Of a stretch of DNA of 63,936 bases, positions 29,491 to 63,936 are shown piece by piece (positions within the stretch are counted from its first letter, which is position 1; each line of letters begins with the position of its first letter). The notes beneath the pieces were generated by a model. That model saw only the letters and a list, made by a program, of their open reading frames with translations. It was not told the DNA's origin and ran no database searches. Location: the NCBI GenBank assembly GCA_030141605.1, contig JAQGDQ010001090.1, positions 1-63,936 on the forward strand, read 5' to 3'. A program made the translations under genes and the position numbers. This DNA is from Tubiluchus corallicola (Eukaryota; Animalia; Priapulida).

Positions 29491-29952
29491 CAGTCAACTT
29501 CGGGTATAAGGTACTCGCTTATAGGGGACCACCGACAACGGTCCTGATTTTTCATAACGTTTTTCCTATGTAAAAATCTTCGTATATAAGGTACTCGGAT
29601 ATAAGGGACTTTTGGTTATAAAGGACGATATCTTCAATTCCCGTATAATAGAAACCCAGGTAAATTACCTCGCATATAAGGGAGCCTATAATCAAAGCGA
29701 AATTGATCAATTTTTAACCTCAATTTTTCGCAAACTCGGCCTTCGAACAGCTCGGTTTCTGCGGTCACATCACTGAAGGTGCTTCCTACATGCCGTTTGC
29801 ACAGAATGTGTAGCAATAATCCATAAAAATATGGGTAAAAGTACAGGTCTAGATACACCCTCGGTCTGACTCAACTTCGGCTATAAGGCACATCGGACAT
29901 AAGGGACGGTTTTTTCCGGTCCGGAGGTGTCCCTTATATCCCAGGTTGACTG
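29491..29952. mobile_element. pogo/Tc1-like MITE
   Basis: TA-CAGTCAAC...GTTGACTG; repeated subterminal ATATAAGG motifs. Confidence 0.8.
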
Positions 29953-30153
29953 CACACTAAAGGTAGCAATAAACCGCTTATAAAATTTTACTCTGTAATC
30001 TAGCATATCTGAGTAACTAATTATCACAGCTTTTACACTCAACATGTGTTCAGAAGTTGACAAAGGACAGGCAAGTAACTAAAAGAAACCACAAGTCATC
30101 AATCGAATAATCGATCAGCTAATCAATCAATCAAATACAGAAATGCTAATCAC

Positions 30154-30352
30154 CTTTGTGATTAACGAAGAAGCTGAGTTCATCTCCTTGTTGTGGAGTA
30201 TTTGCAATGTCCTTGTTCACGACCCAGTATTCCGAACGATCGATAAGAAGGTCGGAATCGTTCGGGAATTCTCTCGGAGACACTCTATTGGGATCACAGG
30301 CCGTTAAGCCGAAGCCTAGTCCTCCCACGTAAACGCTCTCTGTCCGCAGCAC
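30154..30352 (-). CDS. neur: neuralized exon 4 (NHR2)
   Basis: VLRTESVYVGGLGFGLTACDP...LIDRSEYWVVNKDI; ttttag/gtgatt; phase 0-1. Confidence 0.95.
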
Positions 30353-31158
30353 CTAAAATAACAAGTACCTATTAGTTTCCTGACACTTAGTTGCAAAATT
30401 ATCCGTTAACTAAAGTTACTGAACTGATGTGGCAGATGGCTTGGTTTTACACACACGTGACATGGCGGTTGTAGCTAAGATACATTGCTGTGGTACACGT
30501 AACCTTTGACCTACAGCAACTGTGCTTGTGTACAACGAAACTGTGAAAAGGCTGATTGAAATTTGATTTGTAATGGCATCACAGAGTATCTAGTTTTTAA
30601 ACCTCAATTGTAAAATTGTTACACAGTTAATACAACCTAACAAAGTCTCGATACTTCTCAGGGAACATTTTAAATCAAACTTTAAATATAAATTCACGTA
30701 CAAGTGACACTTTTGGTAATGCATGTACTATATTTTGTTAATTATTTTATGCCTTGCATTCAGTTTTTTCCTTGGGCCTTTTCTCTATGGAATTCATCAA
30801 CAGAAAGACTGCTTCTTTATTAATTACAAGCTCACTTTGCTTCAGAAAGAATGTTACTGCATGCCTTTTCTTGCTATCAATATGGATTCTGTTTCTTTGG
30901 ACACCTTATTCATATCTTCATTGTTTTACTATAGCCCCTAACCACGAGAGGCCGTTACCCTTTTCTGGCACAAATTATTTTAAAAAGCCTTACATTTTAC
31001 ACCAGAATATAACTGAAAATTCTCTGAGTTCCTGTCGGTGATAGCACAAATCAACATTTATCAAATTTTGAAACCAAACTCGTCCAAAAGAAAGTCTAGA
31101 CAGCCTGGATTTGAACCAGAGACCTTTCACTCACAAAACGAATGTGAATACGTCTTAC

Positions 31159-31448
31159 CTGAACAACAAATTTTTCGCCCAGCCGTATGGGCCTCGAGAT
31201 GAACACGTACGCATTACAAAACTCATCCTCTAGCCGACTGGCAATGGTCCTGCTTGGCGACACCTGGACATTGAAACCATGCGTTGTGTGGAAATGCGCC
31301 GGCTGGAACTGCGCGTAGTTGTGGTGGACGACAGGCGGAACAGGCGTGGACTCGTCGAGGCTCACACTCTGCATCCGACGTGTGATGTCGCCCACACCTC
31401 CTGCCGTGGAATTACTCCTGCTGACCAAGTGTGGACCAAGCTTAGTAT
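31159..31448 (-). CDS. neur: neuralized exon 3 (linker, start of NHR2)
   Basis: HFHTTHGFNVQVS...FCNAYVFISRPIRLGEKFVVQ; attacag/gtaaga; phase 1-0. Confidence 0.95.
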
Positions 31449-31670
31449 CTGTAATAGAGGCACACAACATTTAATTCGACTTTAAAAATTTGTTTACGTG
31501 GGATGACGAATGGGTAACGTGATAAACCGGGATATCCCAGTTCGAACAAAATTAACTATTGACCAATGTTGGATTTGAAGTAAACATCATGGATATAATC
31601 GCTTTATAATACATACAATGAACTATAACCCCATCAAGTGTGGATCTGTAGAGACTGGTTGCATATTTAG

Positions 31671-32184
31671 TTAAAGGACAAGGAAAGGGGCACCTGAAGT
31701 AGGTTTCAGAAATATCATCTTAAAAAATTATTATACTTTACAGCATTTTTATGTGTATATCTTACTCGCAATTAAAGGAATTTTAGGTCGTTTTCATTTT
31801 AAAACTCCCGTGATGACTGTAAGACGCAACCATTTTAACGGTAAGTTGTTTGAAACAAGTTTGAAAAAATAATCAGAGCATTCGTAGCACGTTAACTGAT
31901 TTAACGTACACAGTACTTTATACAGTCAATAAGATTAATAAAATAATATGCTTTCTGGTGAGCCAGTGGTGCACACTGGGCGGGATTTTTGGTGAGCCAG
32001 TGGTGCACACTGGGCGGGAGATGCAGAGTGGTTTTATCAGGTGACACAAACATTTTAAATTACCAAGAATTTCCAATTGTAATTACACAAGTTTTTCAAA
32101 CAGGTAAGTGTAATGCTAAGCAATATGACCTTGTAAAGAAAGTTTTTTGGAATATACTTTAGAATTCCATTTACGTTCCCTTAA
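31671..32184. mobile_element. Kolobok-like MITE related to 5673-6685
   Basis: TTAA-AGGACAAG...CCC-TTAA; shares GGCACCTGAAGTAGGTTT and further blocks. Confidence 0.65.
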
Positions 32185-33622
32185 GCTATGTAAATAGATA
32201 AAGCTTGAATTAAATTGATATATATGACATAAGCCTGGAGTTTTTTCCCCACTAGGGCCTACACAAGTGATTTAAACTAATTTCACGTTATTGTTTTCAA
32301 TACTGGTATTTTAGTACTTGCTGTTTTTGAAGTAAGTCCTAAATTCCTAGTGCATCAGTTCAGTACATTAAAACGCAGACAGCGAAACAGCGTACGCCTT
32401 AGCAATGTTCAATTCCCGGCGGTGCGCCTAGGAGGTTAGAAAACGCATCTGCCACGCGACACACACAAAAGGAACAAAGCACTGGACAGGTGCAGGAAGG
32501 TATAATTACTGAAAGCGTGGCAGCCTGTGCCTACAATTCAACACAGCTGTCATTAAAACAGCAAGGTGAAAATGGACTGAGGAGGCTTTGTACAGGTCAG
32601 TTCTTAGCAAAAACGCCGTGCAGTGGGTTTTTGTAACTTCACAATCAAAAAGTAAACAGCTACTTTGCACAGTTAACAGTAAGACCTAAAATCAACTATG
32701 GTTTACGGCGCATGGAAAATGACACACAAGTTTCTGGCTTGTTTGTATAATGTCTAGTTTGTGTTTTAGTCTGTTGATGTTCACATTTTATAATGTTTCA
32801 TAGGCCCGAATAAAAATTACGTTTGACAAATATCTTGCTACGTAATTGTAAAATTTCGTAACGAAATTCTAAGCTGTGTTGATGCACTTCTTACAACTGC
32901 TAACACTCGTATATTCGTCAGGCTAGACATTCATAATTTGTTAAGCACGGTTCACAAGAAGATTTCAGGCACTTAGAACTTTTCAGTGAACACTTAATTA
33001 GTTCGTTTTTTAGTTGGAAAATGTTTGCTAATAGACAGAACTTTCTTAATTGACTATTTAATGAAACTGATTAAGTTTTCGTGGTTTGAAGTTGAATTAG
33101 ATGACATTAACATCACAGACAGAACAATGATCTGATATCGTTAATTAATAAAATCAAAATTCGCTCTTCATTAAGAATCAACTTCTACCATAGGATCATT
33201 GTTTATTTAGTCTTAGTCTCTCTGCACACAAACCCAAAATTTTCTTCAGATGTTCATTTTGCTATTACTAAAAAATGCAACACATTGTCTACCCCCTAGT
33301 TCTTTAAAAAAGCTTTGCTTATTGACAAAGTTTCCCCCGGGCTTCTTGTCTGTAGAATTCTGTGCAAGAAAACTGCTTTCCTGAAACTTACAATCTCACT
33401 AGATTAAAAAAAAACACCAGCGGGTACCTTCTGTCACTATCAAATTACTTATATGAATTAATTATCTCTGGACGTGTGCTAATATTTTCATCTTTTTACT
33501 CAAACCCCTGACCGTGAGTGACCACTGGGGTGAAAAGTAGCAAACGAAATTAGTAATAACGCTTATTAGAGAAAATTATTATACAAATTAATTAATATAA
33601 TGTTAACGTCAAGATTACTATA

Positions 33623-34066
33623 AATTATGCTTCAAAGCCATGTAGTTAATTAAATTTTGATACGAAGCTCGACAGACAGGAAACGAGAGAAAGTTGGAAT
33701 ACCTGGATTAGATCCAGGAATCTTCTTCTTACAAGACAGCTTCTTATTCATCCCTTGTAGGTGGCTAAATAAATTATACTTCAAAACCATGTAGGTCATT
33801 AAATTTTGATAACAGCTCGAAAGACAGGAAAAGAGAGAAAGTTGGAGTACCTGGATTTGAACCAGGAATCTTCTTCTTATAAGACAGCTTCTCATTCATC
33901 CCTTGTAGGTGGCTAAATAAATTATGGTTCAAAACCATGTAGTTAATTAAATTTTGATACGAAGCTCGAAAGAAAGGAAACGAGAGAAAGTTGGAATACC
34001 TGGATTAGAACCAGGAATCTTCTTCTCATAAGACAACTTCTTATTCATCCCTTATAGGTGGCTAAC
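33623..34066. repeat. Three tandem ~150-bp units, possibly from a tRNA-SINE head on the minus strand
   Basis: Triplicated unit containing CCTGGATT(T/A)GAACCAGG, a reverse B-box-like hairpin. Confidence 0.8.
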
Positions 34067-34791
34067 CAAATTCAGCATGTTCAATATTAGATCGGTGATA
34101 GCTCCCACTTCCTTTGTTTTAAATTTTGTCATCAAAACTAAATTTATTGGAAATTCGTGCCACCACTGCAAGGATGGTCAAACTCTTCCTGCAGATAGCA
34201 GCAATACAGTGAAGCATGCGGACAGGAATGTGCCTAATTCCTGCAGTGAGGATAAATTATTGTTTGTACAGGAAACAGCCAGCAAACATAAACAGCGGAT
34301 AAAATTCAGCTAATCCAGAAATCGTCCAACGAGTCTTGGGGGTACGAAATGATGTGAAAACACGATCACAAAGGCCCTTTCACACTGCTCTATTAGCAAC
34401 TTCCTGTGCCAACGACGCCAATACCGAGACGCATAGCTGAAGTATAATTCGAATTCATTGTCAAAGTACTGCCGATGAATTACAATCCACGGAATTGGGG
34501 GGGGGGGAACTATTCATGAAGAAGCTGAAATTCAGGGCAGAATACCAACTAATGCATCTGTCTTGATCATATCAATAAATTCGCTTCAATCATAAAATTT
34601 AAAAGCTGATTTTTTTTAATTAGAAGCATGATCACAGTTACAACACGAAAAGTTAAGTTAGACTAATAAATAAATCTATAAAAGGTTACATTATAGGCCC
34701 CCTAACCGTAGTTTTTCAAGAAGCAATTTGCACAATTGTACAATGTTCCCGTGGAATGCATTCCGAAAAGCAGCCCGTGAAGTTTGACAAC

Positions 34792-35040
34792 AATGATGAT
34801 GACGATGACGCTGGTGATAATGATTACAAATGATAGTGATAGCAACGATGATGGTTAATACGATGGTGACGATGACAACGATGATAATGATTATTATGAA
34901 GATGAGGACAGTGGTGATGATAATGACGATGATTATAATGATGAAGATTACGAAGATTACAACGACCATGATGATGATGACGATGACGATGATGATCATG
35001 ATGACGGCGACTACGATGATTACGAAGATGACGACGAGGA
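34792..35040. repeat. Degenerate (GAT/GAC)n trinucleotide tract
   Basis: ATG/ACG triplet run in neuralized intron 2. Confidence 0.9.
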
Positions 35041-35749
35041 AAATAAAAATAATAATTTATGTGTTAAATGTTTTTTCCACTCGCAGAACCTGTCATGCAG
35101 TAAGGCTAGAAAAAACAAAGCAATTGAGAAGGCAACAAACACTTCTCAAGGAAATAAGACACGTGGCTCCTCCTACTAGCCATAAACAATATTTTATGAA
35201 CGCCACCTCCTCTTTGTGGAAATTAACGACTGCAACACGCTGTCTGCACGGTCTCATTTTATTTCCAGGGCTTTACTCATAGCCCAGTAAAAGAATACGG
35301 GTTCTCTAACTCACACCATCTGTCAATTCCAACATATCCCATGTGTGGCACACGCTCTCAGCGCTTCCCTTTTGTCTGCAGAGCTATTCTTAGACGAGGG
35401 CAGACGCGCGGCAGGTGCAGTGGTTAATGCGTGCAGCGGCATGGGGGTTTAATTACTCAACTATTGTCTTAGTCGCGTGCGAGGGTGTATATATAGAACG
35501 CAAGCACCTGTGGGCGTGGAAGAAAGAGGTGTAAGATTTACTGTTTGACCCGGCCTCCTCAAAGCTGAGGAAATGATTGTTCCACAAACAGATGTTGTAT
35601 TTCTAAATATAACTCGCCGCACGCGAATGAGACAATAGAAGAAGGAATTGCTAATAAGTGCCTTAACACTGTCCAATAGAATAAATTGCAATATAAAGAA
35701 AATTGTAACGGGTTTTTGATGTTTTTACACAAATTTTTCATGGCAGCCA

Positions 35750-36246
35750 CAGACACCTAGCCCTATTTCTAGACACCTAGACACAAGCACAGAAACCTAG
35801 CCCTACTTCTAGACACAAGCACAAACACCCAGCCCTACTTCTAGACACCTAGACACAAGCACAGATACCTAGCCCTACTTCTAGACACAAGCACAAACAT
35901 CCAGCCCTAGTTCTAGACACCTAGACACAAGCACAAACACTCAGCCCTACTTCTAGACACCTAGACACAAGCACAGAAACCTAGCCCTACTTCTAGACAC
36001 AAGCACAGAAGTCTAGCCCTACTTCTAGACACAAGCACAGACACCTAGCCCTATTTCTAGACACAAACACAGACACCTAGCCCTACTTCTAGACACAAGC
36101 ACAGACACCTAACCCTATTTCTAGACACAAGCACAGACACCTAGCCCTATTTCTAGGCACCTAGACACAATCACAGACACCTAGCCCTACTTCTAGGCAC
36201 CTAGACACAATCACAGACACCGAGCCCTATTTCTAGACACCTAGGC
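35750..36246. repeat. Minisatellite with ~32/41-bp variants
   Basis: AGACACCTAGCCCTACTTCTAGACAC(CTAGACAC)AAGCAC, ~13 units. Confidence 0.93.
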
Positions 36247-37874
36247 ATTTGAGATACGGGAAACTTCTTACAATTTTTTTAAAATGCGATGTAGTTCAAC
36301 TACATTTCAGTAGTGGTATACGTACTTAATTACTGATGCATAGCTACAGCTTGTGGAATTTAAATTGACTTGTTAGTACAAGTTTATTACTGACAATCAG
36401 TGAGGTGGAGAGCAGTTAATGACGTCACATTTAATAAATAAACCACAGAAAATTGCTTTATTGTGTGACAGACCGTTTCGCTCTTGCTATTAAGAATTTG
36501 TTCGACTTTTACATAGTGCTACAAAAAATCAAATTCATTTATCGCTGATATAAAGAATAAACATGTCAGTATACATCTAAATGGGAAGGGGTGGTGAAAA
36601 CACAGCTTAAACAGGTATATAATCATTTATACAGCATCAATTAGCACTTGACAACTGTTAATTTACAGAGTTAGCGATCTTTCAACGAATTTAAACCTCC
36701 ACTAACCAGCGTAGCATCAATGCTGTGTGCTTTTACAAACCAAGCAAAGGGTAACGAACTACGGTTTAACTCAAATCCCACCAAAATTTTTAAAAGAGCG
36801 GTTTTGCCACCGTAAATTTGTGTGCCGAATGAAATGCTTAGCGGAAGCGGCACAACAAGTTGTAATTCAACCCGCACGCAAACAGAGAAATTCTCACTCA
36901 AATCCTAAAATTACGTTTATACAAGAATCGTTAGAACTGTGGGAAATGGATGTGTTAACAGTTTCACGGAAGGAAATTATTCTCTGAACATTGCTCTCTG
37001 CACGAATGCCACCAGCGCCATAAGCGCACGATAAACAATGCCATTTTATACAGGATTATGGATATTTAGTGTGAAATGAGGGTGTTTTTACACAAATCAC
37101 CCCACACAAGGCCAAAGGTCACACAAGGTATCCTCAAGGATAGGTGAACATATGAATACATGTCTAGAAATATAAAATTCATGTAAGTAATTTGCTACTA
37201 ACAGAACGCATCTGTTGATGTTCCGCTAGAATCGAGTTGAGATTGTAATTTTCAAGGAAACAATTTTCTGATTAAGAATTCCATGAGTAAGAAGCCCGAG
37301 GGAAAATCGGGACCAGATTTACAACATGTTGGAGTGTAAAGGTTATACATGGGTGTAAACAAATGCTACTTTTTTGCTGTTCTTTAACTTTTACTAGAAA
37401 AGTAGGCCTACAATTTGCTTATAAATGAGCATGTTAAATGTACTTTGTTACAGTTCATATTTTCATACGTTTGCATCACGTCGCTACTGAACTCCTTTCT
37501 ATTTCATTTCTCTTCTCTTTTTCTCTATCTTCGTCTATTATTTTATCTTAACTATTCTCTGCTGTCCTATTTTTTCTCTTGTTAACCAGTTTTTTCTCCA
37601 CTTTTCATGGTGGTCTTACAAGCTTTGCTTCTTGACCACCATGCAGCACATTTTTCCTGATGATAAATTATTACGTAGTCAGTAACTACATTAATATAGT
37701 TCGTTTATAATTATTGTAATTTACATTGAGTTGAAACGTAATACATGTAATTGATTTCATATACAGTTACAATGCGATAATGTAATCATGCTGAAGTGGA
37801 CAATAAATTACAAATTACAAATGTGTGAAATACCCAATAAGATATAGCTGTATACAAAAATTCGTGTAGCTTAC

Positions 37875-38372
37875 CTAGTAACTCAATAGCAATCGTGTTA
37901 CCATAGACATCAAGAAGTGGCCATATTGGATTGCTAGTATTGACACCTGAAAAGAAGACGCCCTTGTCTTCATTATTAATTCCGTATCTGACATCACCGT
38001 TTGCCGTCACATAGTAATACAAGATCGATCCGGGCAAGTCCGCATATCTCTCCCCTAGCGCCTTTGCCCAATTTCCGGCCTTATTAGTCAAATCCGGACA
38101 AGCGTACCTGGGCAGGTCTCTGCGGACGGTGTCCAGAGCTGGATCGTTGGACGTGAAACCGAAACGCAAGACGCCCGACCAGTTAGAAGAGGTCTCCACA
38201 AAACGCACGAATATGACTTCGTCGACCCGGATGGGACGGTGTCCGAAGACGATGCCTTTGCAGAAACTGTCGTTCCGGCGACAGATCCGGCGATCGGAGG
38301 ACAATGTGATGTTGTCTCCATGCGTGAAGTGGAACCAGAGTGGTTGAGTCTTCTCTCGTTCAGTGGTTTCAC
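37875..38372 (-). CDS. neur: neuralized exon 2 (NHR1 domain)
   Basis: PLWFHFTHGDNI...SFCKGIVF.HRPI...WSGVLRFGFTSNDP...LPRYACPDLTNKAGNWAKAL...DVYGNT; tttcag/gtaagc; phase 1-1. Confidence 0.97.
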
Positions 38373-38938
38373 CTGAAATGTAACAAAGATTTGTTAATAT
38401 AATTTTGCACATGCTGTGAAAAAGGCACAGTCAAAATATGTAGGAACATAAACCAAACTGCTTTAGTGACACAAACACTTTATTATTGACTGTCTTTTCT
38501 GTACACTACGTTGTGACTACTAGATTAAAACCTGTAACAGCTCAAATCACTTGAAACTGGTTAACCTTGGGCAATGCATATCAGAAACTAGTCAGGTGAG
38601 AAAATGATTCACTGTAGTCTAACTTGCTGTAAAGTTGTAATGTCGCTAAAGTTTATAAAGTCCATAAACAAACTCGTCAATCAGTTCACGGCACATGCTA
38701 CAAATATACAATGTTCCATACTTTTCACACAGTGGTGGCCTCGCAACAACAAATGTTTTACGAAGCATCAGTGATTCCAACACGTGGATTTAAAACACTT
38801 CAAGTCAGTCCAACATCATGAATTTAAAGCAACCCGTAGCTCATTAAAACTGAACACATAATACCACATATTCTCGGTAATTTGTGTTTATTGGACAATA
38901 AGAAACTTTCTTTACAGCAGAACATAATAAAACACATG

Positions 38939-47762: not shown

Positions 47763-47939
47763 ATGGCGGCTTACGTTGCTAACATGCAAAAGCATTTTCA
47801 ACTTCATAATCGAACTAAAGATTATCCTGCCCACTCTGCAAAGGTTCACAGTGTAGCATGGAGTTGTGACGGCAGACGATTAGCATCAGGGTCGTTTGAT
47901 AAGACAGTTAGTTTGTTTCTGTTGGACAGAGAAAGATTG
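47763..47939 (+). CDS. THOC3: THO complex subunit 3 (Tex1, WD40), exon 1
   Basis: HSAKVHSVAWSCDGRRLASGSFDKT matches THOC3; aaaATGG start; gtaggc donor, phase 0. Confidence 0.95.
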
Positions 47940-48737: not shown

Positions 48738-48897
48738 GCTAAAGACCACACATTCCGAGGTCATGGAGATAGCGTGGACCAGCTTTGTTGGCACCCAACC
48801 AATCCAGATCTTCTTGCCACGGCTAGTGGTGACAGAACCGTCAGAGTTTGGGATGCAAGATCCATTACAAAAAGTGCACAAGTAATTAGTACCAAAG
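48738..48897 (+). CDS. THOC3: THOC3 exon 2
   Basis: RGHGDSVDQLCWHPTNPDLLATASGDRTVRVWD...TK; tttcag/gtgaga; phase 0-1. Confidence 0.95.
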
Positions 48898-48913: not shown

Positions 48914-49722
48914 AGGTGGCGCAGACTCTTGAACTCTGTGACAGCTGGCGCTGACTCTTGAACTCTGTGACAGGTGGCGCTGACTCTTGGACTCTGTGAC
49001 AGGTGGCGCTGACTCTTGAACTCTGTGACAGGTAGCGCCGAGTCTTGAACTCTGTGACAGGTAGCGCTGACTCTTGAACTCTGTGACAGGTGGTGCTGAC
49101 TCTTGAACTCTGTGACAGGTAGCGCTGACTCTTGAACTCTGTGACAGGTAGCGCTGACTCTTGAACTCTGTGACAGGTGGTGCTGACTCTTGAACTCTGT
49201 GACAGGTGGTGCTGACTCTTGAACTCTGTGACAGGTAGCGCTGACTCTTGAACTCTGTGACAGGTGGCGCTGACTCTTGAACTCTGTGACAGGTAGCGCT
49301 GACTCTTGAACTCTGTGACAGGTGGCGCTGACTCTTGAACTCTGTGACAGGTAGCGCTGACTCTTGAACTCTGTGACAGGTAGTGCTGACTCTTGAACTC
49401 TGTGACAGGTGGTGCTGACTCTTGAACTCTGTGACAGCTGGCGCTGACTCTTGAACTCTGTGACAGGTAGCGCTGACTCTTGAACTCTGTGACAGGTAGC
49501 GCTGACTCTTGAAATCTGTGACAGGTGGCGCTGACTCTTGAACTCTGTGACAGGGGGCGCTGACTCTTGAACTCTGTGACAGGTAGCGCTGACTCTTGAA
49601 CTCTGTGACAGGTGGCGCTGACTCTTGAACTCTGTGACAGGTAGCGCTGACTCTTGAACTCTGTGACAGGTAGCGCTGACTCTTGAACTCTATGACAGGT
49701 GGCGCTGACTCTTTAACTCTTG
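48914..49722. repeat. 29-bp minisatellite, ~27 copies
   Basis: GACTCTTGAACTCTGTGACAGGT(G/A)GCGCT. Confidence 0.97.
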
Positions 49723-50979
49723 AACTTTTTTCAGAAGTTTGTGTGAGACATCGGCCTGATTTTAAATTTGTTGATTAGAATTAAAACAAATGCGTGGAAG
49801 TATGTAGTCTAATTTGTTGTTTTTATAGAAAAAGATGCATAACGCTTCCATCTACGAGTTGTTAATTAAAATGTTTTGCTGTTATTGAAATATGTAATAT
49901 TTAGATTAATTCATTACTTTGTAAGAAAAACTGCACAACTATTTGATTAGAAGAGTGGCCACCCAAAAACTGCACAACTATTTGATTAGAAGAGTGGCCA
50001 TCCAATTTATAATTTATTCCAACTTACATGATTGGTGCATTTACATTATTACTTTTTATCACAGCTATAACATTACATAGAACTCAGGACAACCAATCAT
50101 ATGTAATTATTCACTCTATCTTATAGTTAATGCAATAAGCATATCGTACTAATGCTAGATATATGACATGTAAATCTGCACATAACTTTAAAAAAACTGT
50201 TAAAAGGAAGAAACAATCTAACGAATTAGGCTGATCATATGGCATTTGCTTATAGGAATAGCAAGCGTCAAATGGTCACCTGTACAAAGGTGACGATGTA
50301 ATTTATAACTTTAGAATGAAGCCCGTATAAATAATTCAAGGTTAACTTAACCTAAAGAACAGCCTGAAAACATGCATGAAGTGTAGGTTAAACACTTAGT
50401 AATATGACTAGAGCGCGCAAGCTGAGGCTGTACTGTTATGTTGGATGTTGGTACCAGGTGAGGATCCCTTGGACTGATAAGTGCAATGGTAGTGTTATGG
50501 GAATAATGCTACAGTTGATGTTGTGTAGGGCAGTCATGCTTGAATTCACCATTAAGCAAAATAAGTATGATGGATATTGATGATGGACATTGAGATTCAG
50601 GTTACTGAGCAGCCTCATGCTGCTTTCAAGTTTGGTAATGCTTATCCAGTTCTTATCATTTATCATTATCCAGATATGATGAATGGCTGTTCCTTTATGA
50701 GCTTCAGAGCATCTCTGTACTTTTAATCTAATATGACTTTTTGTGCAATGTAAAGTAGCACAGTGGTTCCCAACCTTTTGTTGACAGTGACCCCTTTCCA
50801 GAACCCTGCATCATATCATGACCCACAAAGGACATAATCACATGTTACAATGTTTCATCACTTATTGCGGGTGTTCCGTTCCAGACCCACCCGCGATAAG
50901 TGAATTTCCCCGAAGTAGAGACGCTATACTTATTTTAGTAGTTATACATTATTTTAAGTCTTTATAAACCCTCCATATA

Positions 50980-51643
50980 TAGTAGCACCATACTAGTAGT
51001 GACATTAGTAGTAGGGCCATACTAGTAGTGACATTAGTAGTAGCGCCATACTAGTAGCGACGTTAGTAGTAGCACCATACTAGTAGCGACGTTAGTAGTA
51101 GCGCCATACTAGTAGCGACATTAGTAGTAGCGCCATACTAGTAGTGACATTAGTAGTAGCGCCATTCTAGTCGAAGCTTGATTTGTTAAGACACAGATAT
51201 AAGACATTGTACAAGCCATTTGGAAACTAGTTCAGTGCATTAGTTGTTAAAAGTTAAGTCTTTCGTTTTAAGTAAGCCTTTTCACAGTTCCAGCTATTGA
51301 TGATGATCGTGAAAAGGTCAAAGGTTAAGTGTACCAGACAACACATTTGTGTACACTTGACAATATCTCGCAGTCCAAGCTATTATAATACTAACAGTTT
51401 TAACAGCTAGCTAGAACCTTACCTAGTTCATTTTTTCTTGTTCTTAACCAAGATCCTGCTAGTAAATCACTCTACGCACAGACTGATGCATAATTAAGCA
51501 AAGTCAATGTAAAACAACTGAGGTTATGGAACTAATGCAGCAGAATGGAACATGCTTTACATGCATGTCACATAACAATTGTAGTTAAGATGCGCTGCTG
51601 CAGTGCACTTAACCTTTGACCTATACCAACTGTGTCTATGCAC
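50980..51643. repeat. Left arm of a near-identical inverted repeat (partner 53417-~54050)
   Basis: Satellite units, a unique ~110-bp stretch and a MITE; reverse complement of the right arm apart from ~4-5 substitutions and one satellite unit. Confidence 0.95.
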
Positions 51644-51935
51644 AACGAAACAATGAAAGACTTATTAGACCATCATTTTGACAATGATAAAAGTGATACA
51701 GTATCAACGAAACATTAAGACACACGGTAAATCAAGCGCCATGTCGCATTTTTTCAACTTCGGCAAAAAAAACGGTTTTTGTTCAGCCACTCTTAGGCTA
51801 AACACACGCAGCCTGAAGCACCAATACAAAAATTATTCAGTATATCAACCATTTTTTATTACACTCAGTAGCAAAGTAGCTAGGTACTTCAAGTTTTAAC
51901 ACTCTGAATTGATTATCCAAATTTGCTGTACTTAC

Positions 51936-52094
51936 TGCAAAGGTGTACCAAAGCTCTCGGTGTTACAGGCGTAAATGTCAGCTCAAGAGTGTGTAACTGC
52001 TGTAGTCCAACATTACACAGTGACACTGCAACAGTCTCGTCTATCTCAGGCGCCTTCTCTAATTCCAGAGCAAACAGTTGTTGACAAGATATTA
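51936..52094 (-). CDS. FBXO41: FBXO41-like exon (third from last, LRR-like), inverted relative to the following exons
   Basis: CQQLFALELEKAPEIDETVAVSLCNVGLQQLHTLELTFTPVTPRALVHLC vs remembered human CMRLQVLELDHVSEITQEVAAEVCREGLKGLEMLVLTATPVTPKALLHFN; ttttag/gtaagt; phase 1-1. Confidence 0.85.
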
Positions 52095-52209
52095 CTAAAA
52101 CATAATTACTTAACATTAAATACTTCACTCTAGTTTCAACATAGAGTCAAAGGACAGAACACTCCTCTATTACAGAGATTTTGGCTTAATTGTGTAATTA
52201 TAAATGTGT

Positions 52210-52465
52210 TTGACTATGAAGTTAGGCAATGCTGGATCAGGTTACTGAGTGGGTAGATGCTTGATTATGAAGTTAAGCAATGATGAACCAGGTCAGTGAA
52301 TAGATGAGTGCTTTGCTATGAAGTTAAGCAATGCTGGACCAGGTTACTGAGTGGGTGGATGCTTGATTATGTAGTTAAGCAATCCTGAATCAGGTCACGG
52401 AATAGATGAGTGCCTGACTATGAAGTTAAGCAATGCTGGGCCAGGTTACAGTATGGATGAGCGAG
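52210..52465. repeat. Five ~50-bp tandem units resembling the 5S internal control region
   Basis: ATGAAGTTAAGCAATGCTGGACCAGGTTA...GATGAGTG repeated, alternating two variants. Confidence 0.7.
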
Positions 52466-53416
52466 CACTGGAAAAATTCATTCAGAGCATTTTCGCATTT
52501 TTACTGCCCAGGCTAGTTCTCTAGTTACTCGCCCGCCTAGAAAACTTCGCAAATATTCACTATCCACTTTCTGTCAATGCAAACGGTTTTCCGATAATTT
52601 AACAGTCGAAAATAAATAAAAAAAATATTATCAAAAAAAAATCCCGCTCAGAGGTCGTTTTAGGCTACGTTTGTGTTTGATGAGAGTTTCGTGCACATTT
52701 TCTTTCCGTTTTGTATGTAGTAATATGATGCAGTGGCAGACTTAGGAAGTGAGCCCAAAGGACCTGGCCCCACCCTTTCATAGTAACAGTTACAGCACAC
52801 CAAGTGAATATTTTCTCTGAATTATAAGCTTTAGAACGTTTAGTTGTAGCTTTTAATGATTTATATCGAGTAAAAAGTTCTGCATTAATGATTTCAGAGT
52901 AAAAACGTTTGTGCCCTTTAAGCGATAATTGAAGTTTTTGGCAAAGATGTCGCTGTGTGCAATTATATGCCATACTAGGGTTTATACTAGTATATTGGTG
53001 TGTAATTAAGAGTCAGAAGTTTGAGGTGACATAATGAGTTTTAAACTACTGCATTTGCTTAAGGAAATAGTAAAAAATGGTCTAAAATGCAGCAGAATGG
53101 ATTGGCAGCCAGGGCTCTGCCTTTAGTTGGGCCCACCCTTTTTCTAAAGGCTGTACCTCCCGCTGTGATGCATGTTCATGCAAGGGCAAGAAACAAATGA
53201 TCCTTTAAAGTGTAGCAAAAGATCTCCCGTACTGCCAAACTCAGTAAACTGAATTACAAGTACATAAAGTTACGAATAAAAATCCCACGGTAACTGTAAC
53301 GACATCAAAGTTTACATATATTTATATTAGCTACCCACATTTAATTAAATATCTTCTTGTTTCTCATTGAATTATTAATTAATTTTCTGTTCAGGTTTTG
53401 CTTAATAATTCCCGAA

Positions 53417-53900
53417 GTGCATAGACACAGTTGGTATAGGTCAAAGGTTAAGTGCACTGCAGCAGCGCATCTTAACTACAATTGTTATGTGACATGCATG
53501 TAAAGCATGTTCCATTCTGCTGCATTAGTTCCATAACCTCAGTTGTTTTATGAGGACTTTGCTTAATTATGCATCAGTCTGTGCGTAGAGTGATTTACTA
53601 GCAGGATCTTGGTTAAGAACAAGAAAAAATGAACTAGGTAAGGTTCTAGCTAGCTGTTAAAACTGTTAGTATTATAATAGCTTGGACTGCGAGATATTGT
53701 CAAGTGTACACAAATGTGTTGACTGGTACACTTAACCTTTGACCTTTTCACGATCATCATCAATAGCTGGAACTGTGAAAAGGCTTACTTAAAACGAAAG
53801 ACTTAACTTTTAACAACTAATGCACTGAACTAGTTTCCAAATGGCTTGTACAATGTCTTATATCTGTGTCTTAACAAATCAAGCTTCGACTAGAATGGCG
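53417..53900. repeat. Right arm of the inverted repeat (non-satellite part)
   Basis: Reverse complement of 51160-51643; begins abruptly inside a truncated MITE. Confidence 0.95.
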
Positions 53901-56365
53901 CTACTACTAATGTCACTACTAGTATGGCGCTACTACTAATGTCGCTACTAGTATGGCGCTACTACTAACGTCGCTACTAGTATGGTGCTACTACTAACGC
54001 CACTACTAGTATGGCCCTACTACTAATGTCACTACTAGTATGGTGCTACTACTAATGTCACTACTAGTATGGCGCTACTACTAATGTCGCTACTAGTATG
54101 GCGCTACTACTAATGTCGCTACTAGTATGGCGCTACTACTAATGTCGCTACTAGTATGGCGCTACTACTAATGTCACTACTAGTATGGCGCTACTACTAA
54201 TGTCGCTACTAGTATGGCGCTACTACTAACGTCGCTACTAGTATGGTGCTACTACTAATGCCACTACTAGTATGGCCCTACTACTAATGTCACTACTAGT
54301 ATGGTGCTACTACTAATGTCGCTACTAGTATGGCGCTACTACTAATGTCGCTACTAGTATGGCGCTACTACTAATGTCGCTACTAGTATGGCGCTACTAC
54401 TAATGTCGCTACTAGTATGGCGCTACTACTAATGTCACTACTAGTATGGCGCTACTACTAACGCCACTACTAGTATGGCCCTACTACAATGTCACTACTA
54501 GTATGGTGCTACTACTAACGTCGCTACTAGTATGGCGCTACTACTAATGTCGCTACTAGTATGGCTCTACTACTAATGTCACTACTAGTATGGCGCTACT
54601 ACTAATGTCACTACTAGTATGGCGCTACTACTAATGCCACTACAAGTATGGCGCTACTACTAATGCCACTACTAGTATGGCCCTACTACTAATGTCGCTA
54701 CTAGTATGGCGCTACTACTAATTTCGCTACTAGTATGGCTCTACTACTAATGTCACTACTAGTATGGCGCTACTACTAATGTCACTACTAGTATGGCGCT
54801 ACTACTAATGCCACTACAAGTATGGCGCTACTACTAATGCCACTACTAGTATGGCCCTACTACTAATGTCGCTACTAGTATGGCGCTACTACTAATTTCG
54901 CTACTAGTATGGCTCTACTACTAATGTCACTACTAGTATGGCGCTACTACTAATGTCACTACTAGTATGGCGCTACTACTAATGCCACTACAAGTATGGC
55001 GCTACTACTAATGCCACTACTAGTATGGCCCTACTACTAATGTCGCTACTAGTATGGCGCTACTACTAATTTCGCTACTAGTATGGCTCTACTACTAATG
55101 TCACTACTAGTATGGCGCTACTACTAATGTCACTACTAGTATGGCGCTACTACTAATGCCACTACAAGTATGGCGCTACTACTAATGCCACTACTAGTAT
55201 GGCCCTACTACTAATGTCGCTACTAGTATGGCGCTACTACTAATTTCGCTACTAGTATGGCTCTACTACTAATGTCACTACTAGTATGGCGCTACTACTA
55301 ATGTCACTACTAGTATGGCGCTACTACTAATGCCACTACAAGTATGGCGCTACTACTAATGCCACTACTAGTATGGCCCTACTACTAATGTCGCTACTAG
55401 TATGGCGCTACTACTAATTTCGCTACTAGTATGGCTCTACTACTAATGTCACTACTAGTATGGCGCTACTACTAATGTCACTACTAGTATGGCGCTACTA
55501 CTAATGCCACTACAAGTATGGCGCTACTACTAATGCCACTACTAGTATGGCCCTACTACTAATGTCGCTACTAGTATGGCGCTACTACTAATTTCGCTAC
55601 TAGTATGGCTCTACTACTAATGTCACTACTAGTATGGCGCTACTACTAATGTCACTACTAGTATGGCGCTACTACTAATGCCACTACAAGTATGGCGCTA
55701 CTACTAATGCCACTACTAGTATGGCCCTACTACTAATGTCGCTACTAGTATGGCGCTACTACTAATGTCGCTACTAGTATGGCTCTACTACTAATGTCCC
55801 TACTAGTATGGCCCTACTACTAATGTGGCTACTAGTATGGCGCTACTACTAACATCACTACTAGTATGGTGCTACTACTAATGTCGCTACTAGTATGGCT
55901 CTACTACTAATGTCGCTACTAGTATGGTGCTACTACTAATGTCGCTACTAGTATGGTGCTACTACTAATGTCGCTACTAGTATGGTGCTACTATTAATGT
56001 CGCTACTAGTATGGTGCTACTACTAATGTCGCTACTAGTATGGTGCTACTACTAATTTCGCTACTAGTATGGCGCTACTACTAACATCGCTACTAGTATG
56101 GTGCTACTACTAATGTCACTACTAGTGTGGCACTACTACTGATGTCACTACTAGTATGGCGCTACTACTAATGTCACTACTAGTATGGCACTACTACTAA
56201 TGTCACTACTAGTATGGCGCTACTACCAATGTCACTACTAGTATGGCGCTATTACTAATGTCACTACTAGTATGGCACTACTACTAATGTCACTACTAGT
56301 ATGGCGCTACTACCAATGTCACTACTAGTATGGCGCTATTACTAATGTCACTACTAGTATGGCGC
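53896..56365. repeat. 29-bp satellite (~85 units) with a 174-bp higher-order repeat
   Basis: CTACTACTAATGTC(G/A)CTACTAGTATGGCG; TACAAG variant recurs every 174 bp from 54641 to 55685. Confidence 0.97.
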
Positions 56366-56463
56366 ATGTTGTTTCGTTTACTATAAAATTTAAATTTCTG
56401 ATTATCAGTCTGTTTGGAATAAAATCTGGCATTCTGAATGGCTAACCTTAAACATCTTAACAG

Positions 56464-56579
56464 AAAATTGCCGATTGCTGAAAAGATTGTCCGTAGCGAT
56501 GGGTATATCCGATTATTTCATCAACCCAGATTCGGCGGAAGCGCAGACGGCGTTCAAGCATATTGTGAACAAATTACAG
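56464..56579 (+). CDS. FBXO41: FBXO41-like penultimate exon (not the frame shown in the ORF track)
   Basis: NCRLLKRLSVAMGISDYFINPDSAEAQTAFKHIVNKLQ vs remembered human ICRNLKSIVVQIGIADYFKEPSSPEAQKLFEDMVTKLQ; ttaacag/gtaaga; phase 1-0. Confidence 0.88.
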
Positions 56580-57277
56580 GTAAGAACACAAGTGTCATCA
56601 AGGTAATTAACAGGTGTAGGATTAATGGCGACGCTTTCCGTTAAAGGATATTACGATGATTAGTAAATAAATGTGGTTTTCATCAACTAACTATAGGTAG
56701 TGTTGTGAGAGGATATTAGGGGCATTTTTACCAATAGGCTAACTAGGCATTAGCCTAGGGCACCAAATTTTAGGAGCCCAGTGTTAAAAGTTTCTTATCC
56801 TCTTCGAAAAATGCATATTTTTTCATATTCATATAAGGTGCGTGTTTTATAACTCATCACAAGCAGTCCGCTTTCGTGTAAATGCCACATAACAAACGAG
56901 TGCAATTGTTACGTAAAAGTTACTACACCACAAGCAGTTGTACAATCTCACTAGATATAAAGGCGGGCGGATGTTCCCCTGGATGTTAATTAGGTGACAC
57001 AATATGAATGCAATGCAATAGTAAATGTAATTATGGACATAGACATAACAAGTAGAAGCGCATATGTAAATAAATGGGATTTACATAAATATACGACTTT
57101 GGTAAGATACTTTTTAGTATCGATACAAGATTTTTGTATCGCTAATTATCGTTTACCAACACTAACTGTAGGTAGCTTTAACTACATATGTGGATTCTCT
57201 TTTATGTTTTTTTAAAACCTTTTCTAGCTTATTCTGTTTTTTAGTGTCACTGTTACAGGTTTTATTCGATTTTTTAG

Positions 57278-57337
57278 GTACTGAGTAAGCAATCGGGTCT
57301 TTGTCAAGTGCTTCACATTCAAACAGACTATGGCTAA
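57278..57337 (+). CDS. FBXO41: FBXO41-like last coding exon
   Basis: tttttag acceptor, phase 0; VLSKQSGLCQVLHIQTDYG* vs remembered human ALRRRPGFSKILHIKVEGGC*. Confidence 0.75.
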   Translation, partial: VLSKQSGLCQVLHIQTDYG

Positions 57338-59671
57338 ATAAACTATGCTAAACGTTTCAAACAGACTACGGCTGGATAAATTATGCTAAACGTTTCAAAC
57401 AGACTACGGCTGGATAAATTATGCTAAACGTTTCAAACAGACTACGGCTGGATGAATTATACTAAATGTTTCAAACAGACTATGGCTGGATAAATTATGC
57501 TAAATGTTTCAAACAGGCGGCGGCTGGATAAATTATGCTAAACGTTTCAAACAAACTGTGGCTGGATAAATTATGCTAAATGTTTCAAACAAACTGTGGC
57601 TGGATAAATTATGCTAAATGTTTCAAACAAACTACGGCTGGATAAATTATGCTAAACATTTCAAACAGACTACGTCTGGATAAATTATGCTAAACGTTTC
57701 AAACAGACTACGGCTGGATAAATTATGCTCAACGTTTCAAACAGACTGCGGCTGGATAAATTAAGCTAAAAGTTTCAAACAGACTACGGCTGGATAAATT
57801 AAGCTAAATGTTTCAAACAGACTACGTCTGGATAAATTATGCTAAATTTTTCAAACAGACTGTGGCTGGATAAATTATGCTAAACGTTTCAGACAGACTA
57901 TGTCTGGATAAATTTTGCTAAATGTTTCAAACAGACTACAGCTAAATAAATTATGCTAAACGTTTCAAACAAACTGTGGCTGGATAAATTATGCTAAATG
58001 TTTCAAACGGACTGCATCTGGATAAATTATGCTAAACATTTCATACAGACTACGGCTGGATAAATTATGCTCAATGTTTCAAACAGACTACGGCTGGATA
58101 AATTATGCTCAACGTTTCAAACAGACTACGTCTGGATAAATTAAGCTAAAAGTTTCAAACAGACTACGTCTGGATAAATTATGCTAAATGTTTCAAACAG
58201 ACTACGGCTGGATAAATTAAGCTAAATGTTTCAAACAGACTACGTCTGGATAAATTATGCTAAATTTTTCAAACAGACTGTGGCTGGATAAATTATGCTA
58301 AACGTTTCAGACAGACTATGTCTGGATAAATTTTGCTAAATGTTTCAAACAGACTACAGCTAAATAAATTATGCTAAACGTTTCAAACAAACTGTGGCTG
58401 GATAAATTATGCTAAATGTTTCAAACGGACTGCATCTGGATAAATTATGCTAAACATTTCATACAGACTATGGCTGGATAAATTATGCTCAATGTTTCAA
58501 ACAGACAACGGCTGGATAAATTATGCTAAACGTTTTAAACAGACTGCGGCTGGATAAATTATGCTAAACGTTTCAAACAGACTACGGCTAAATAAATTAT
58601 GCTAAACGTTTCAAACAGACTGCGGCTTGATAAATTGTGCTAAATGTTTCAAACAGACTACGGCTGGATAAATTATGCTAAAAGTTTCAAACAGACTACA
58701 GCTAAATAAATTATGCTAAACATTTCAAACAGACTGTGGCTGGATAAATTATGCTAAACGTTTCAAACGGACTGCATCTGGATAATTTATGCTAAACATT
58801 TCATACAGACTACGGCTGGATAAATTATGCTAAATGTTTCAAACAGACTACGGCTGGATAAATTATGCTAAACGTTTCAAACAGACTGCGGCTGGACAAA
58901 TTATGCTAAACGTTTCAAACAGACTACGGCTAAATAAATTATACTAAACGTTTCAAACAGACTGTGGCTTAATAAATTATGCTAAACGTTTCAAACAGAC
59001 TACGGCTGGATAAATTATGCTAAACGTTTCAAGCAGACTGTGGCTGGATAAATTGTGCTCAACGTTTTAAACAGACTACGGCTGGATAAATTATGCTAAA
59101 CGTTTCAAACAGACTGCGGCTGGATAAATTATGCTAAACGTTTCCAACAGACTACGGCTAAATAAATTGTACTAAACGTTTCAAACAGACTGTGGCTTAA
59201 TAAATTATGCTAAACGTTTCAAACAGACTACGGCTGGATAAATTATGCTAAACGTTTCAAGCAGACTGTGGCTGGATAAATTGTGCTCAACGTTTTAAAC
59301 AGACTGCGGCTAAATAAATTATGCTAAACGTTTCAAACAGACTGCAGCTTGATAAATTGTGCTAAATGTTTTAAACAGACAGCGTCTAAATAAATTATGC
59401 TAAACGTTTCAAACAGACTGCAGCTTGATAAATTGTGCTAAATGTTTCAAACAGACTACGGCTGGATAAATTATGCTAAACGTTTCAAACAGACTGCGGC
59501 TTAATAAATTATGTTAAACATTTCAAACAGACTGCAGCTTGATAAATTCTGCTAAATGTTTCAAACAGACTACGGCTGGATAAATTATGCTAAACGTTTC
59601 AAACAGACTGCGGCTTAATAAATTATGTTAAACGTTTCAAACAGACTACGGATGGATAAATTATGCTAAAC
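57318..59671. repeat. 38-bp tandem repeat, ~62 copies
   Basis: TTTCAAACAGACTACGGCTGGATAAATTATGCTAAACG; first unit overlaps the FBXO41-like stop. Confidence 0.97.
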
Positions 59672-60835: not shown

Positions 60836-61201
60836 TATATTTGAAATTTATTGCCAAGTTTTATATGTCTGACGTACAGAAAATATTGATTACATTTAAT
60901 TAGGTTTTAATATATAAGATCTGAAAACAATTTTACACATTTCTAAGATACTTTTAACGTTTTTACTTTCTTATCACGTTACTTGATATATATATGTACA
61001 TGTTTAACATTTATACATTTTTGCATGTTTAAATAGACCTACTTGAAATTGTTTATGACTTTTTAAATTCAAAAATTAATGTATCGACAATTGCATGTAA
61101 GTGTCTTCGTAAATTTTGTTTTCACTTGTTGTATGTAGTCTTATTTAAACATTCATATGTTTAGAATGTAGTAATATTGGCTCAGTTTGGCAGTCTTTCC
61201 T

Positions 61202-61743
61202 TTAAAGGAAGACCGGACGTTTGTTTAGACGCAATCTCCTTTTAATTTACTGTCCAAAATATACATTTTCTTGCCTATAAAAGTTAGCAATTGTTTCTTA
61301 TATTTGAATAATTAGTTAATTAACGGCAACCAAACACAGCTATTGCTTACGTCAGAAACTAACCACAGTTTGTGGAATGGCAGGCGTCTTCCCTTGCGCA
61401 TCAAGCACATTTGCATAAGTGTTACTGCTTAAAACGCGTGATGTCACGAAAATGAGCTCAACGTTATATGACGTCAGAAACTAACACAGCAGTTCATGAT
61501 TTTGGTTATCACGGTACCGCCTTCTATTTGTCGGCCACGCGAATGTGACAAAAAGGTGCTGTTGCCAATCTTAGTAGATTCACTGAGCCGCGCGTAGCTT
61601 TGAAAGTTTAACGAAATCTGAGTATCCGAGGTAATTATCATTTAATCTAAGCTTTGATTTAAAAAAAGCTATTGTAGTTTTCAGTATTTTAGAGCATTCT
61701 TTATTCTGAACTAATGTTACACAATCATCCGGTTTTCCTTTAA
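61202..61743. mobile_element. Kolobok-like MITE in the left palindrome arm
   Basis: TTAA-AGGAAGACCGGA...TCCGGTTTTCCT-TTAA. Confidence 0.85.
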
Positions 61744-62082
61744 TGTAGGTTCAGTGTAAATTTTATAACGTTTATAAGTTTAATATACCGTTTTCATCTC
61801 AGCAATGAAGTCCTGTTTTTGTTGTTTATTTGTCATTAATTTAGTCTTATGCATGTTGATCTTAGCTCATAAGTTAATTTCTTCTGCTCATAGTACGGCA
61901 ATGCATTGTTTATTAGTAATTTTATAACTTTTATTTTTGTATGTGCTAAATGGACGAATAAATAAATCAAAATGAATAAATAAATCTATAAAATAGTAAA
62001 AAGGCAAAAACAGGACTTCATTGCTGAGATGAAAACGGTATATTAAACTTATAAACGTTATAAAATTTACACTGAACCTACA

Positions 62083-62625
62083 TTAAAGGAAAAACGGACG
62101 ATTGTGTAAGCACGAGTTCAGAATAAAGAATGTTCTAAAATACTGAAAACTACAATAGCTTTTTTTAAATCAAAGCTAAGATTAAATAATAATTACCTCG
62201 GATACTCAGATTTTGTTCAACTCTCAAAGGTACGCGCGGCTCAGTGAATCTACTAAGATTGGCAGCGGCGCCTTTTTGTCACATGTGCGTGGCCGACAAA
62301 TAGAAGGCGGTACCGTGATAACCATGATCATGAACTGCAGTGTTAATTTCTGACGTCATATGATGTAGAGCCCATTTTTCATGACATCACGCGTTCAGAC
62401 AGTAACGCTTACGCAAACGTGCTTGACGCGCAAGGGAAGATGCCTGCCATTGCACAAACTGTGGTTAGTTTCTGATGCAAGCAATAGCTGTGTTTGGTTG
62501 CCGTTAATTAACTAATTATTCAAATATAAGGAACAATTGCTAACTTTTATAGGCAAGAAAATGTATATTTTGGACAGTAAATTAAAAGAAGATTGCGTCT
62601 AAACAAACATCCGGTCTTCCTTTAA
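62083..62625. mobile_element. Kolobok-like MITE in the right palindrome arm
   Basis: TTAA-AGGAAAAACGGA...TCCGGTCTTCCT-TTAA. Confidence 0.85.
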
Positions 62626-62985
62626 AGGAAAGACTGCCAAACTGAGCCAATATTACTACATTCTAAACATATGAATGTTTAAATAAGACTACATACAACA
62701 AGTGAAAACAAAATTTACGAAGACACTTACATGCAATTGTCGATACATTAATTTTTGAATTTAAAAAGTCATAAACAATTTCAAGTAGGTCTATTTAAAC
62801 ATGCAAAAATGTATAAATGTTAAACATGTACATATATATATCAAGTAACGTGATAAGAAAGTAAAAACGTTAAAAGTATCTTAGAAATGTGTAAAATTGT
62901 TTTCAGATCTTATATATTAAAACCTAATTAAATGTAATCAATATTTTCTGTACGTCAGACATATAAAACTTGGCAATAAATTTCA

Positions 62986-63936
62986 TGATTTGGTTATTTT
63001 TGAGTCTTCCGAGTCTTCTGAGTTGAAAATTGCCATTATAGCCTGGCATAAAACAATCACAAAATGGCTCTTTAAGTTGTCAGAACAAAACCTGTCATTT
63101 TCAATAAACTCTGGGAACATTCCTGTTGCTTTTTTGCATAATGCATGGTCTCCTTCATACATCAGACAGATGCAAGTACAAACCTTATTCCACATCTGGA
63201 GATTTGTAATAGTCTCCACGGTACGTAAGATTGATGCAAATGCAAACTTTATTCCATTTCCGGGGATTTGTAATAGCCTCCACGGTACATAAGATTGATG
63301 ATGCAAGTGCAAACCTTATTCCACATCTGGAGATTTGTATTAGTCTCCATGGTGCGTAAGATTGATGCAAATGCAAACCTTACTCTACATCCAGAGATTT
63401 GCAATCCCTAGAGGTTTACCTGGTATTTCTAAAACAGGAGACATGTCTAGTGAAATATCTGGAGATTTGTAATAGTCTCCACGGTACGTAAGATTTGTGC
63501 ACGTACAAACCTTATTCCACACCACACCAACAAAATAAAAAGATTTGATTATTTTCGAGTCTTCCGAATCTTCTGAGTTTAAAATTGCATTTATAGCCTG
63601 GCATAAAACAATCACAAAATGGCTCTTGAAGTTGTCAGAACAAAACCTGTCATTTTCAATAAACTCTGGGAACATTCCTGTTGCGTTTTTGCATAATGCA
63701 TGGTCTCCTTCATACATCAGACAGATGCAAGTGCAAACCTTATTCCACATCTGGAGATTTGTAATAGTCTCCATGGTACGTAAGATTGATGCAAATGCAA
63801 ACGTTCTTCCACATCCGGAGCTTTGTAATAGCCTCCACGGTACATAAGATTGATGATGCAAGTGCAAACCTTATTCCACATCTGGAGATTTGTAATTGTC
63901 TCCATGGTACGCAAGATTGATGCAAATGCAAACCTT
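62986..63936. repeat. Composite repeat: ~555-bp duplication with ~65-70-bp subunits, running off the window
   Basis: 62990-63380 recurs at 63545-63936; subunit AAACCTTATTCCACATCTGGAGATTTGTAATAGTCTCCACGGTACGTAAGATTGATGC. Confidence 0.9.

What the first reader, a model, noticed from the sequence alone, without database searches (positions are those of the whole stretch)
50980..57337. Consecutive FBXO41-like exons on opposite strands, the flipped exon caged by long inverted repeats
Seen: an intact 159-nt exon on the minus strand (52094->51936) ends in phase 1 (TGC A|gt). Its continuation is on the plus strand (ag|AA AAT TGC, 56464-56579), followed by the last exon (57278-57337). All three keep open frames and canonical splice sites. 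The minus exon lies in a 1.77-kb spacer between ~660-bp near-identical inverted arms (50980-51643, 53417-~54050). The MITE crossing the left arm/spacer junction is complete (to ~51662) while the right copy is cut at 53417, so the native order is reverse(spacer)->right arm->downstream exons. Knowledge: the peptides join into the collinear FBXO41 C-terminus. Inference: recombination between the arms would put all three exons in order on the plus strand, as an invertible exon cassette. Alternatives are mod(mdg4)-style trans-splicing, a fold-back template-switch duplicate, or misassembly. The arms differ by a few bases and one satellite unit, which argues against a simple same-read copy but not against a haplotype mix.
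Basis: partly seen in the sequence, partly recalled or inferred. Interest (0 to 1): 0.88.

Follow-up and report, generated by a model that had tools for sequence, protein, structure and literature searches.

The report
Fold-back join, likely an assembly error
Two neighbouring FBXO41 exons do lie on opposite strands here, but public contigs show the flipped piece running on into other DNA instead of into the second repeat, so this is likely a fold-back error in the assembled sequence (or a rare broken allele), not a gene switch.

Summary
The anatomy is real: three FBXO41 exons (one on -, two on +) and 664-nt inverted arms, 98% alike, round a 1,773-nt spacer. The cassette reading fails. A flipping spacer would have an arm at both ends in either orientation. 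Public contigs of three runs (one sample) match the spacer's right end to the same base, 53423, then run on 83-544 letters into non-arm DNA; contigs of two samples cross the left arm/spacer join. So an uncaged, likely in-order form exists. The right junction sits on a 7-nt inverted microhomology. The window lacks the first 522 of 634 FBXO41 profile positions; upstream lies THOC3, which stops after exon 2. The structure is THOC3 5' part | inverted 2.4-kb FBXO41 piece | FBXO41 3' end: two template switches. Best reading: chimeric library molecule or misjoin in the assembly (0.62). Rival: a real derived allele (0.28), favoured by allele-level differences between the arms and a 5-nt insertion at the left junction. 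No raw reads or genome were available to separate them. Both are known kinds of event.

The parts
47763..47939 (+). THOC3 exon 1 (residues 1-59)
48738..48897 (+). THOC3 exon 2 (to about residue 113), ends in phase 1; residues ~115-320 not found in the window
50833..50974 (.). High-copy repeat cut short at 50974 (left limit approximate, from depth bins); other copies run on with a shared sequence
   Evidence: loose ends at 50974 in all 4 runs
50975..50979 (.). Left junction: 5 inserted letters (ATATA) between the cut repeat and the cut satellite
   Evidence: sequence
50980..51643 (-). Left arm: 6.6 units of the 29-nt satellite (50980-51171), ~100 nt, then most of a high-copy inverted-repeat element
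51273..51664 (.). Complete MITE-like element crossing the left arm/spacer join (label inferred from matching ends and copy number)
51644..53416 (-). Spacer: single-copy FBXO41 intron-exon-intron piece, inverted
51936..52094 (-). FBXO41 third-last coding exon (profile 523-577)
53417..53423 (.). Right junction: 7-nt microhomology GTGCATA, the reverse complement of 51637-51643; public contigs match to 53423 and then leave
53417..54080 (+). Right arm, beginning inside the cut element
53889..56365 (+). 29-nt satellite, 85 units, in the intron between the last-but-two and last-but-one exons
56464..56579 (+). FBXO41 second-last coding exon (profile 576-616)
57278..57337 (+). FBXO41 last coding exon with stop (profile 617-633, weak score alone)

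Best explanation
The window joins the 5' part of THOC3, an inverted 2.4-kb piece of FBXO41 and the FBXO41 3' end, and this join is likely an artefact of the sequencing library or assembly rather than the animal's gene. Shown: both genes are incomplete at this place, the right junction lies on a 7-nt inverted microhomology, and public contigs carry the spacer without the right arm. Inferred: the native order is upstream FBXO41 -> exon (159 nt) -> element -> satellite -> last two exons, with a 3,339-nt GT-AG intron. Inferred mechanism: a copying polymerase switched templates twice. One switch, at the microhomology, turned back 1.77 kb and so copied the arm twice; the other, inside the satellite, joined it to THOC3 intron 2. 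The chimeric molecule would have entered the contig and been extended or polished with reads of the other allele, which would explain why the arms differ like alleles.
For:: X1 record 8 (910 nt, depth 162) matches 53058-53423 and runs on 544 letters; X2 record 16 and X4 record 31 stop matching at the same base with 151 and 83 letters beyond (3 of 4 runs, one sample; no such piece listed for X3). X1 record 5 (51594-52771, depth 190) and X3 record 21 (51545-51771, second sample) cross the left arm/spacer join. Both X1 contigs pass unbroken through the two ends of the junction; a carrier would be expected to show forks there (recalled behaviour of graph-based contigs). Two conserved genes break at one place while all five exons are open with intact splice sites. 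Junction fits amplification chimeras: inverted, under 10 kb, 2-21 nt of complementarity (PMC1855051 passages); such chimeras give many misassemblies even with HiFi reads (10.64898/2026.06.11.730069 passages). Arm divergence outside the satellite (5 nt in 472) equals window-versus-X1 divergence (19 in 2,013). A second fold-back 6.8 kb away has 376 nt of perfectly identical outer arms.
Against: A single-molecule fold-back gives identical arms; these differ by two events and a satellite unit, so an extra haplotype-mixing step is needed. The left junction has 5 inserted letters, which is common at in-vivo junctions (PMC3907307 passages). The same anatomy (spacer 0.8-70 kb, 2-8 nt microhomology) marks real fold-back duplications. 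It is not known that the library was amplified, and one study found few chimeric contigs after amplification (PMC11660948 passages). X1, X2 and X4 may come from another individual than the window; all three differ from it at 53331. Contigs drop rare variants. The letters beyond 53423 were not shown, so they are not proven to be FBXO41 intron. THOC3's later exons could lie beyond 63936.
Confidence: 0.62

Rival explanations
1. A real but derived, static allele or extra copy: an in-vivo double template switch (fold-back inverted duplication with deletion or translocation) that fused THOC3 intron 2 to the FBXO41 3' end; intact copies of both genes would lie on the other haplotype or elsewhere.
For: Arms have diverged as if the event were old; 5-nt insertion at the left junction; spacer length and 7-nt microhomology lie in the range of human fold-back duplications. 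The phases would allow THOC3 exons 1-2 to splice in frame to the last two FBXO41 exons (170 aa; a match expected by chance about one time in three).
Against: The deep run X1 passes both ends of the right junction without a fork. An allele old enough to diverge by 0.4-1% while breaking two conserved genes would need intact copies elsewhere, and none of its five exons shows decay.
Confidence: 0.28
2. Invertible exon cassette: recombination between the arms flips the exon in and out of frame as a regulated switch. Includes the variant in which the cage is fixed and the run-on at 53423 is an insertion allele.
For: A 664-nt, 98% inverted repeat can recombine; the flipped exon is intact and in phase with both neighbours. 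The run-on letters were not seen.
Against: Both orientations keep an arm after the spacer end, which 3 of 4 runs contradict. No FBXO41 5' exons in the window. An insertion exactly at the end of the 7-nt microhomology is unlikely, and the right element is cut 21 nt short.
Confidence: 0.05
3. mod(mdg4)-type trans-splicing of a fixed split gene.
For: Consecutive exons on opposite strands with canonical splice sites.
Against: An uncaged form exists in public contigs; the minus exon is an internal exon with no upstream partner in the window, unlike the alternative 3' exons of mod(mdg4) (PMC6237743 passages).
Confidence: 0.02

Closest known systems
Inverted chimeras of multiple displacement amplification (PMC1855051)
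   Same: Inverted join of two places under 10 kb apart, primed on a short complementary stretch (7 nt here; 2-21 nt there).
   Different: Arms are not identical; a second junction with 5 inserted letters joins another gene; library type unknown.
Fold-back inverted duplications with a single-copy spacer (PMC3907307)
   Same: Single-copy spacer (1,773 nt; 766-70,466 there) between inverted copies, inverted microhomology (7 nt; 2-8 there), second junction to other DNA.
   Different: Duplicated part is only 664 nt; no read support seen for the junctions.
Flip/flop inversion between inverted repeats in yeast mating-type switching (PMC6692504)
   Same: A segment flanked by one inverted repeat.
   Different: There the repeat flanks the segment in both orientations; here public contigs lack the repeat at one end, and flipping rebuilds no whole gene.
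Drosophila mod(mdg4) trans-splicing (PMC6237743)
   Same: Exons of one protein on both strands.
   Different: There common 5' exons join alternative 3' exons with their own promoters; here one internal exon is flipped and the 5' exons are absent.

Membership tests
FBXO41 orthologue | Sequence likeness and order against named FBXO41 proteins | tested here: met
FBXO41 orthologue | F-box and N-terminal zinc finger present in the locus | tested here: not met
   Profile positions 1-522 of 634 not found among 3,565 six-frame peptides of the window; they may lie elsewhere in the genome
Invertible cassette (flip/flop) | Long inverted repeat flanks the segment | tested here: met
   In the window only
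Invertible cassette (flip/flop) | Repeat present at both ends in other data of the species | tested here: not met
   3 of 4 runs (one sample) leave at 53423 for non-arm DNA
Invertible cassette (flip/flop) | Both orientations occur | not testable with these tools
   Only short contigs are served; none spans an arm
Invertible cassette (flip/flop) | One orientation gives a whole functional gene | tested here: not met
   Upstream on + is THOC3, not FBXO41; only a THOC3-FBXO41 fusion frame would result
mod(mdg4)-type trans-splicing | Common 5' exons and separately transcribed 3' exons in one fixed locus | tested here: not met
mod(mdg4)-type trans-splicing | Joined mRNA from the split locus | not testable with these tools
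   No RNA reads could be laid
Amplification-type inverted chimera | Inverted join under 10 kb with 2-21 nt complementarity | tested here: met
   1.77 kb, 7 nt
Amplification-type inverted chimera | Identical arms from one molecule | tested here: not met
   5 nt in two events plus one satellite unit
Amplification-type inverted chimera | Junction absent from unamplified reads of the same individual | tested here: inconclusive
   Contigs, not reads; sample may not be the source
In-vivo fold-back inverted duplication | Single-copy spacer with inverted microhomology | tested here: met
   ranges
In-vivo fold-back inverted duplication | Junction supported by independent molecules | tested here: inconclusive
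   No bridging contig listed, but contigs drop rare forms

The most novel reading that the evidence does not exclude
The rearrangement is a real, segregating allele that has made a new chimeric gene: THOC3 exons 1-2 splice in frame to the last FBXO41 exons (170 aa), and recombination between the arms flips a third exon into the frame (223 aa), so an animal gene carries a DNA-invertible coding exon. Both frames are open; nothing shows that either is made.
Probability: 0.05. Interest if true: 0.75.

Novelty: not a real feature. Interest (0 to 1): 0.12.

Why it matters
As an artefact it matters only as a warning: this contig breaks two conserved genes at one place and holds a second fold-back, so structural oddities in this assembly need read support. 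As a real static allele it would be one more fold-back rearrangement with a possible fusion frame. Only a real, flipping exon would be surprising: I recall no DNA-invertible coding exon in an animal gene outside immune-gene rearrangement (recalled; not established by my searches).

Tried and rejected
No whole genome is held for this window, so upstream FBXO41 exons, later THOC3 exons and second copies could not be sought. No RNA holder listed; no evidence either way. Left junction (50930-51019, 4 runs, 577 records laid, the 32 longest of 580 pieces listed): no piece exceeds 46 nt and none bridges 50974|50980; a lack of cover is weak, since contigs drop short joins between high-copy repeats. 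Contig depth of the arm's non-repeat part in X2 (7.85) resembles spacer contigs (6.78-7.29), a hint of one copy only, but depth is no copy number. Metagenome scans found nothing: exact 28-nt pattern, 0 matches; minus-exon peptide, 0 of 598 stretches confirmed. Word-based protein search with the minus exon: 0 of 9 candidates. Atlas search unavailable. Earlier scan findings: none in 3 look-ups. Simple staggered-break inversion (DNA left of 50975 being the native upstream of the spacer) rejected: the 544 run-on letters are not listed as a piece anywhere in 49721-53888 though a piece that long would rank among those shown, and that DNA belongs to THOC3. Paper searches: FBXO41 with trans-splicing, 0 papers; one search gave 4 unrelated papers; one search gave nothing specific. 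One search used THOC3 exon 2 limits off by one and showed a false stop; corrected.

Full report
Observation. Inverted arms of 664 nt lie at 50980-51643 and 53417-54080 with 11 mismatches and 1,773 nt between them. Three exons, 52094->51936 (-), 56464-56579 (+) and 57278-57337 (+), have AG/GT ends and join into one open frame ending in a stop. A whole-library search with the minus exon gave 82 hits. Of 8 looked up, 4 clusters carry the name FBXO41, 2 carry other names and 2 none. Thirteen homologues all match the minus exon in tblastn, 9 of them also the next exon at E below 0.5, in order. On a profile of 16 homologues the exons take positions 523-577, 576-616 and 617-633 of 634.

Surroundings. 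No other part of FBXO41 is in the window: positions 1-522 found no peptide with iE under 5 among 3,565. Upstream on the + strand lie exons 1 and 2 of THOC3 (47763-47939, 48738-48897); residues ~115-320 are not found in the window (10 homologues, whose print was cut; profile of 17). They could lie beyond the window's end. So two conserved genes are each incomplete, and the break lies between 48897 and 51936.

The two junctions. Left: a high-copy repeat stops at 50974, five letters follow, and the satellite begins mid-unit at 50980. In all 4 runs other copies of the repeat run on past 50974 with a shared sequence, and satellite pieces run on leftwards as more satellite. Right: the element that is complete across the left arm/spacer join (51273-51664) is cut 21 nt short at 53417. 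The first 7 letters of the right arm also belong to the spacer's own continuation (below): a microhomology with a chance of about 1e-4 at a given place.

Public data. Six runs were listed, four hold part of the stretch, all as contigs. Laid on 49721-53888 (32 of 38,291 pieces listed): X1 record 5 (51594-52771) and X3 record 21 (51545-51771) cross the left arm/spacer join, in two samples. These three runs are one sample; X3 has no listed piece there. In a flipping cassette the same arm sequence follows that end in both orientations. So this sample carries a spacer with no cage, most simply the in-order gene, whose model has a 3,339-nt GT-AG intron. The run-on letters were not shown. The sample may or may not be the one assembled: some of its contigs match the window exactly over 188-289 nt, while all three runs differ from it at 53331.

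Mechanism. The structure is THOC3 5' | inverted (satellite start, arm, spacer) | arm, satellite, last two exons. Two template switches account for it: one at the 7-nt microhomology, turning back 1.77 kb and so copying the arm twice, and one inside the satellite to THOC3 intron 2. This is inferred from anatomy, which does not tell tube from cell. Amplification chimeras are 85% inverted, mostly under 10 kb, primed on 2-21 nt (PMC1855051, passages) and cause many misassemblies with long-read assemblers (10.64898/2026.06.11.730069, passages), though another study saw few chimeric contigs (PMC11660948, passages). Human fold-back duplications have spacers of 766-70,466 nt with 2-8 nt of microhomology, some with insertions (PMC3907307, passages).

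Artefact or allele. For artefact: the deep run passes both ends of the right junction without a fork; five intact exons of two broken genes; arm divergence outside the satellite (5 of 472 nt) equals allele-level divergence (19 of 2,013 against three X1 contigs); a second fold-back at 60842-62985 has outer arms identical over 376 nt round an older 88-93% core. For a real allele: the arms are not identical, so an artefact needs a haplotype mix; the left junction has an insertion; the library type is unknown; the sample laid may not be the source. I put artefact at 0.62 and a real static allele at 0.28.

Comparison. It works like a fold-back template switch. It fails the tests for a flip/flop cassette (PMC6692504, passages): no arm at one end in public contigs, and no whole gene on flipping. 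It fails those for mod(mdg4)-type trans-splicing (PMC6237743, passages): no common 5' exons, an internal exon flipped. A search for FBXO41 with trans-splicing found 0 papers. No supplements were read; none bears on these claims as far as I can tell.

Boldest open reading. THOC3 exon 2 ends in phase 1, so THOC3 exons 1-2 would splice in frame to the last two FBXO41 exons (170 aa) or, after a flip, to all three (223 aa). If the allele were real and flipped, it would be a newborn fusion gene with an invertible exon. The phase match is expected by chance about one time in three, and nothing shows expression: probability 0.05.

Verdict. Observation confirmed, headline interpretation not supported, likely not a real feature. 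Interest 0.12.

Noticed in passing
window 60842-62985: Second large inverted repeat: outer arms identical over 376 nt (3 mismatches in 499), inner part 88-93% alike, short centre; starts just after a repeat element ending near 60837 and ends against a cut copy of a tandem unit. Looks like an old inverted repeat extended by a recent fold-back.
   Followed up: partly
window 62987-63381 and 63542-63936: Direct duplication, 95% alike, holding a 64-nt tandem repeat.
   Followed up: no
window 57318-59671: A 38-nt satellite (62 units) begins inside the last FBXO41 exon and overlaps its last codons and stop.
   Followed up: no
window 13223-14707 (+): Single long open frame (495 aa) matching both Wntless domains weakly; intronless, possibly a diverged retrocopy.
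   Followed up: partly
window ~26728-38430 (-): neuralized-like gene: Neuralized domain at 37789-38430 and further exon-like frames down to a RING-like end near 26728 (RING label by eye). No break noticed, not checked in full.
   Followed up: partly
window 53340-53423 (+): Pyrimidine tract and AG at 53393-53394 look like a splice acceptor on the strand opposite to FBXO41, cut by the junction; does not fit THOC3 exon 3 by eye.
   Followed up: no
window 53538-53555: The 4-nt block that separates the arms completes a short hairpin (5-nt stem) in the right arm only, as a quasi-palindrome template-switch mutation would; seen by eye.
   Followed up: no
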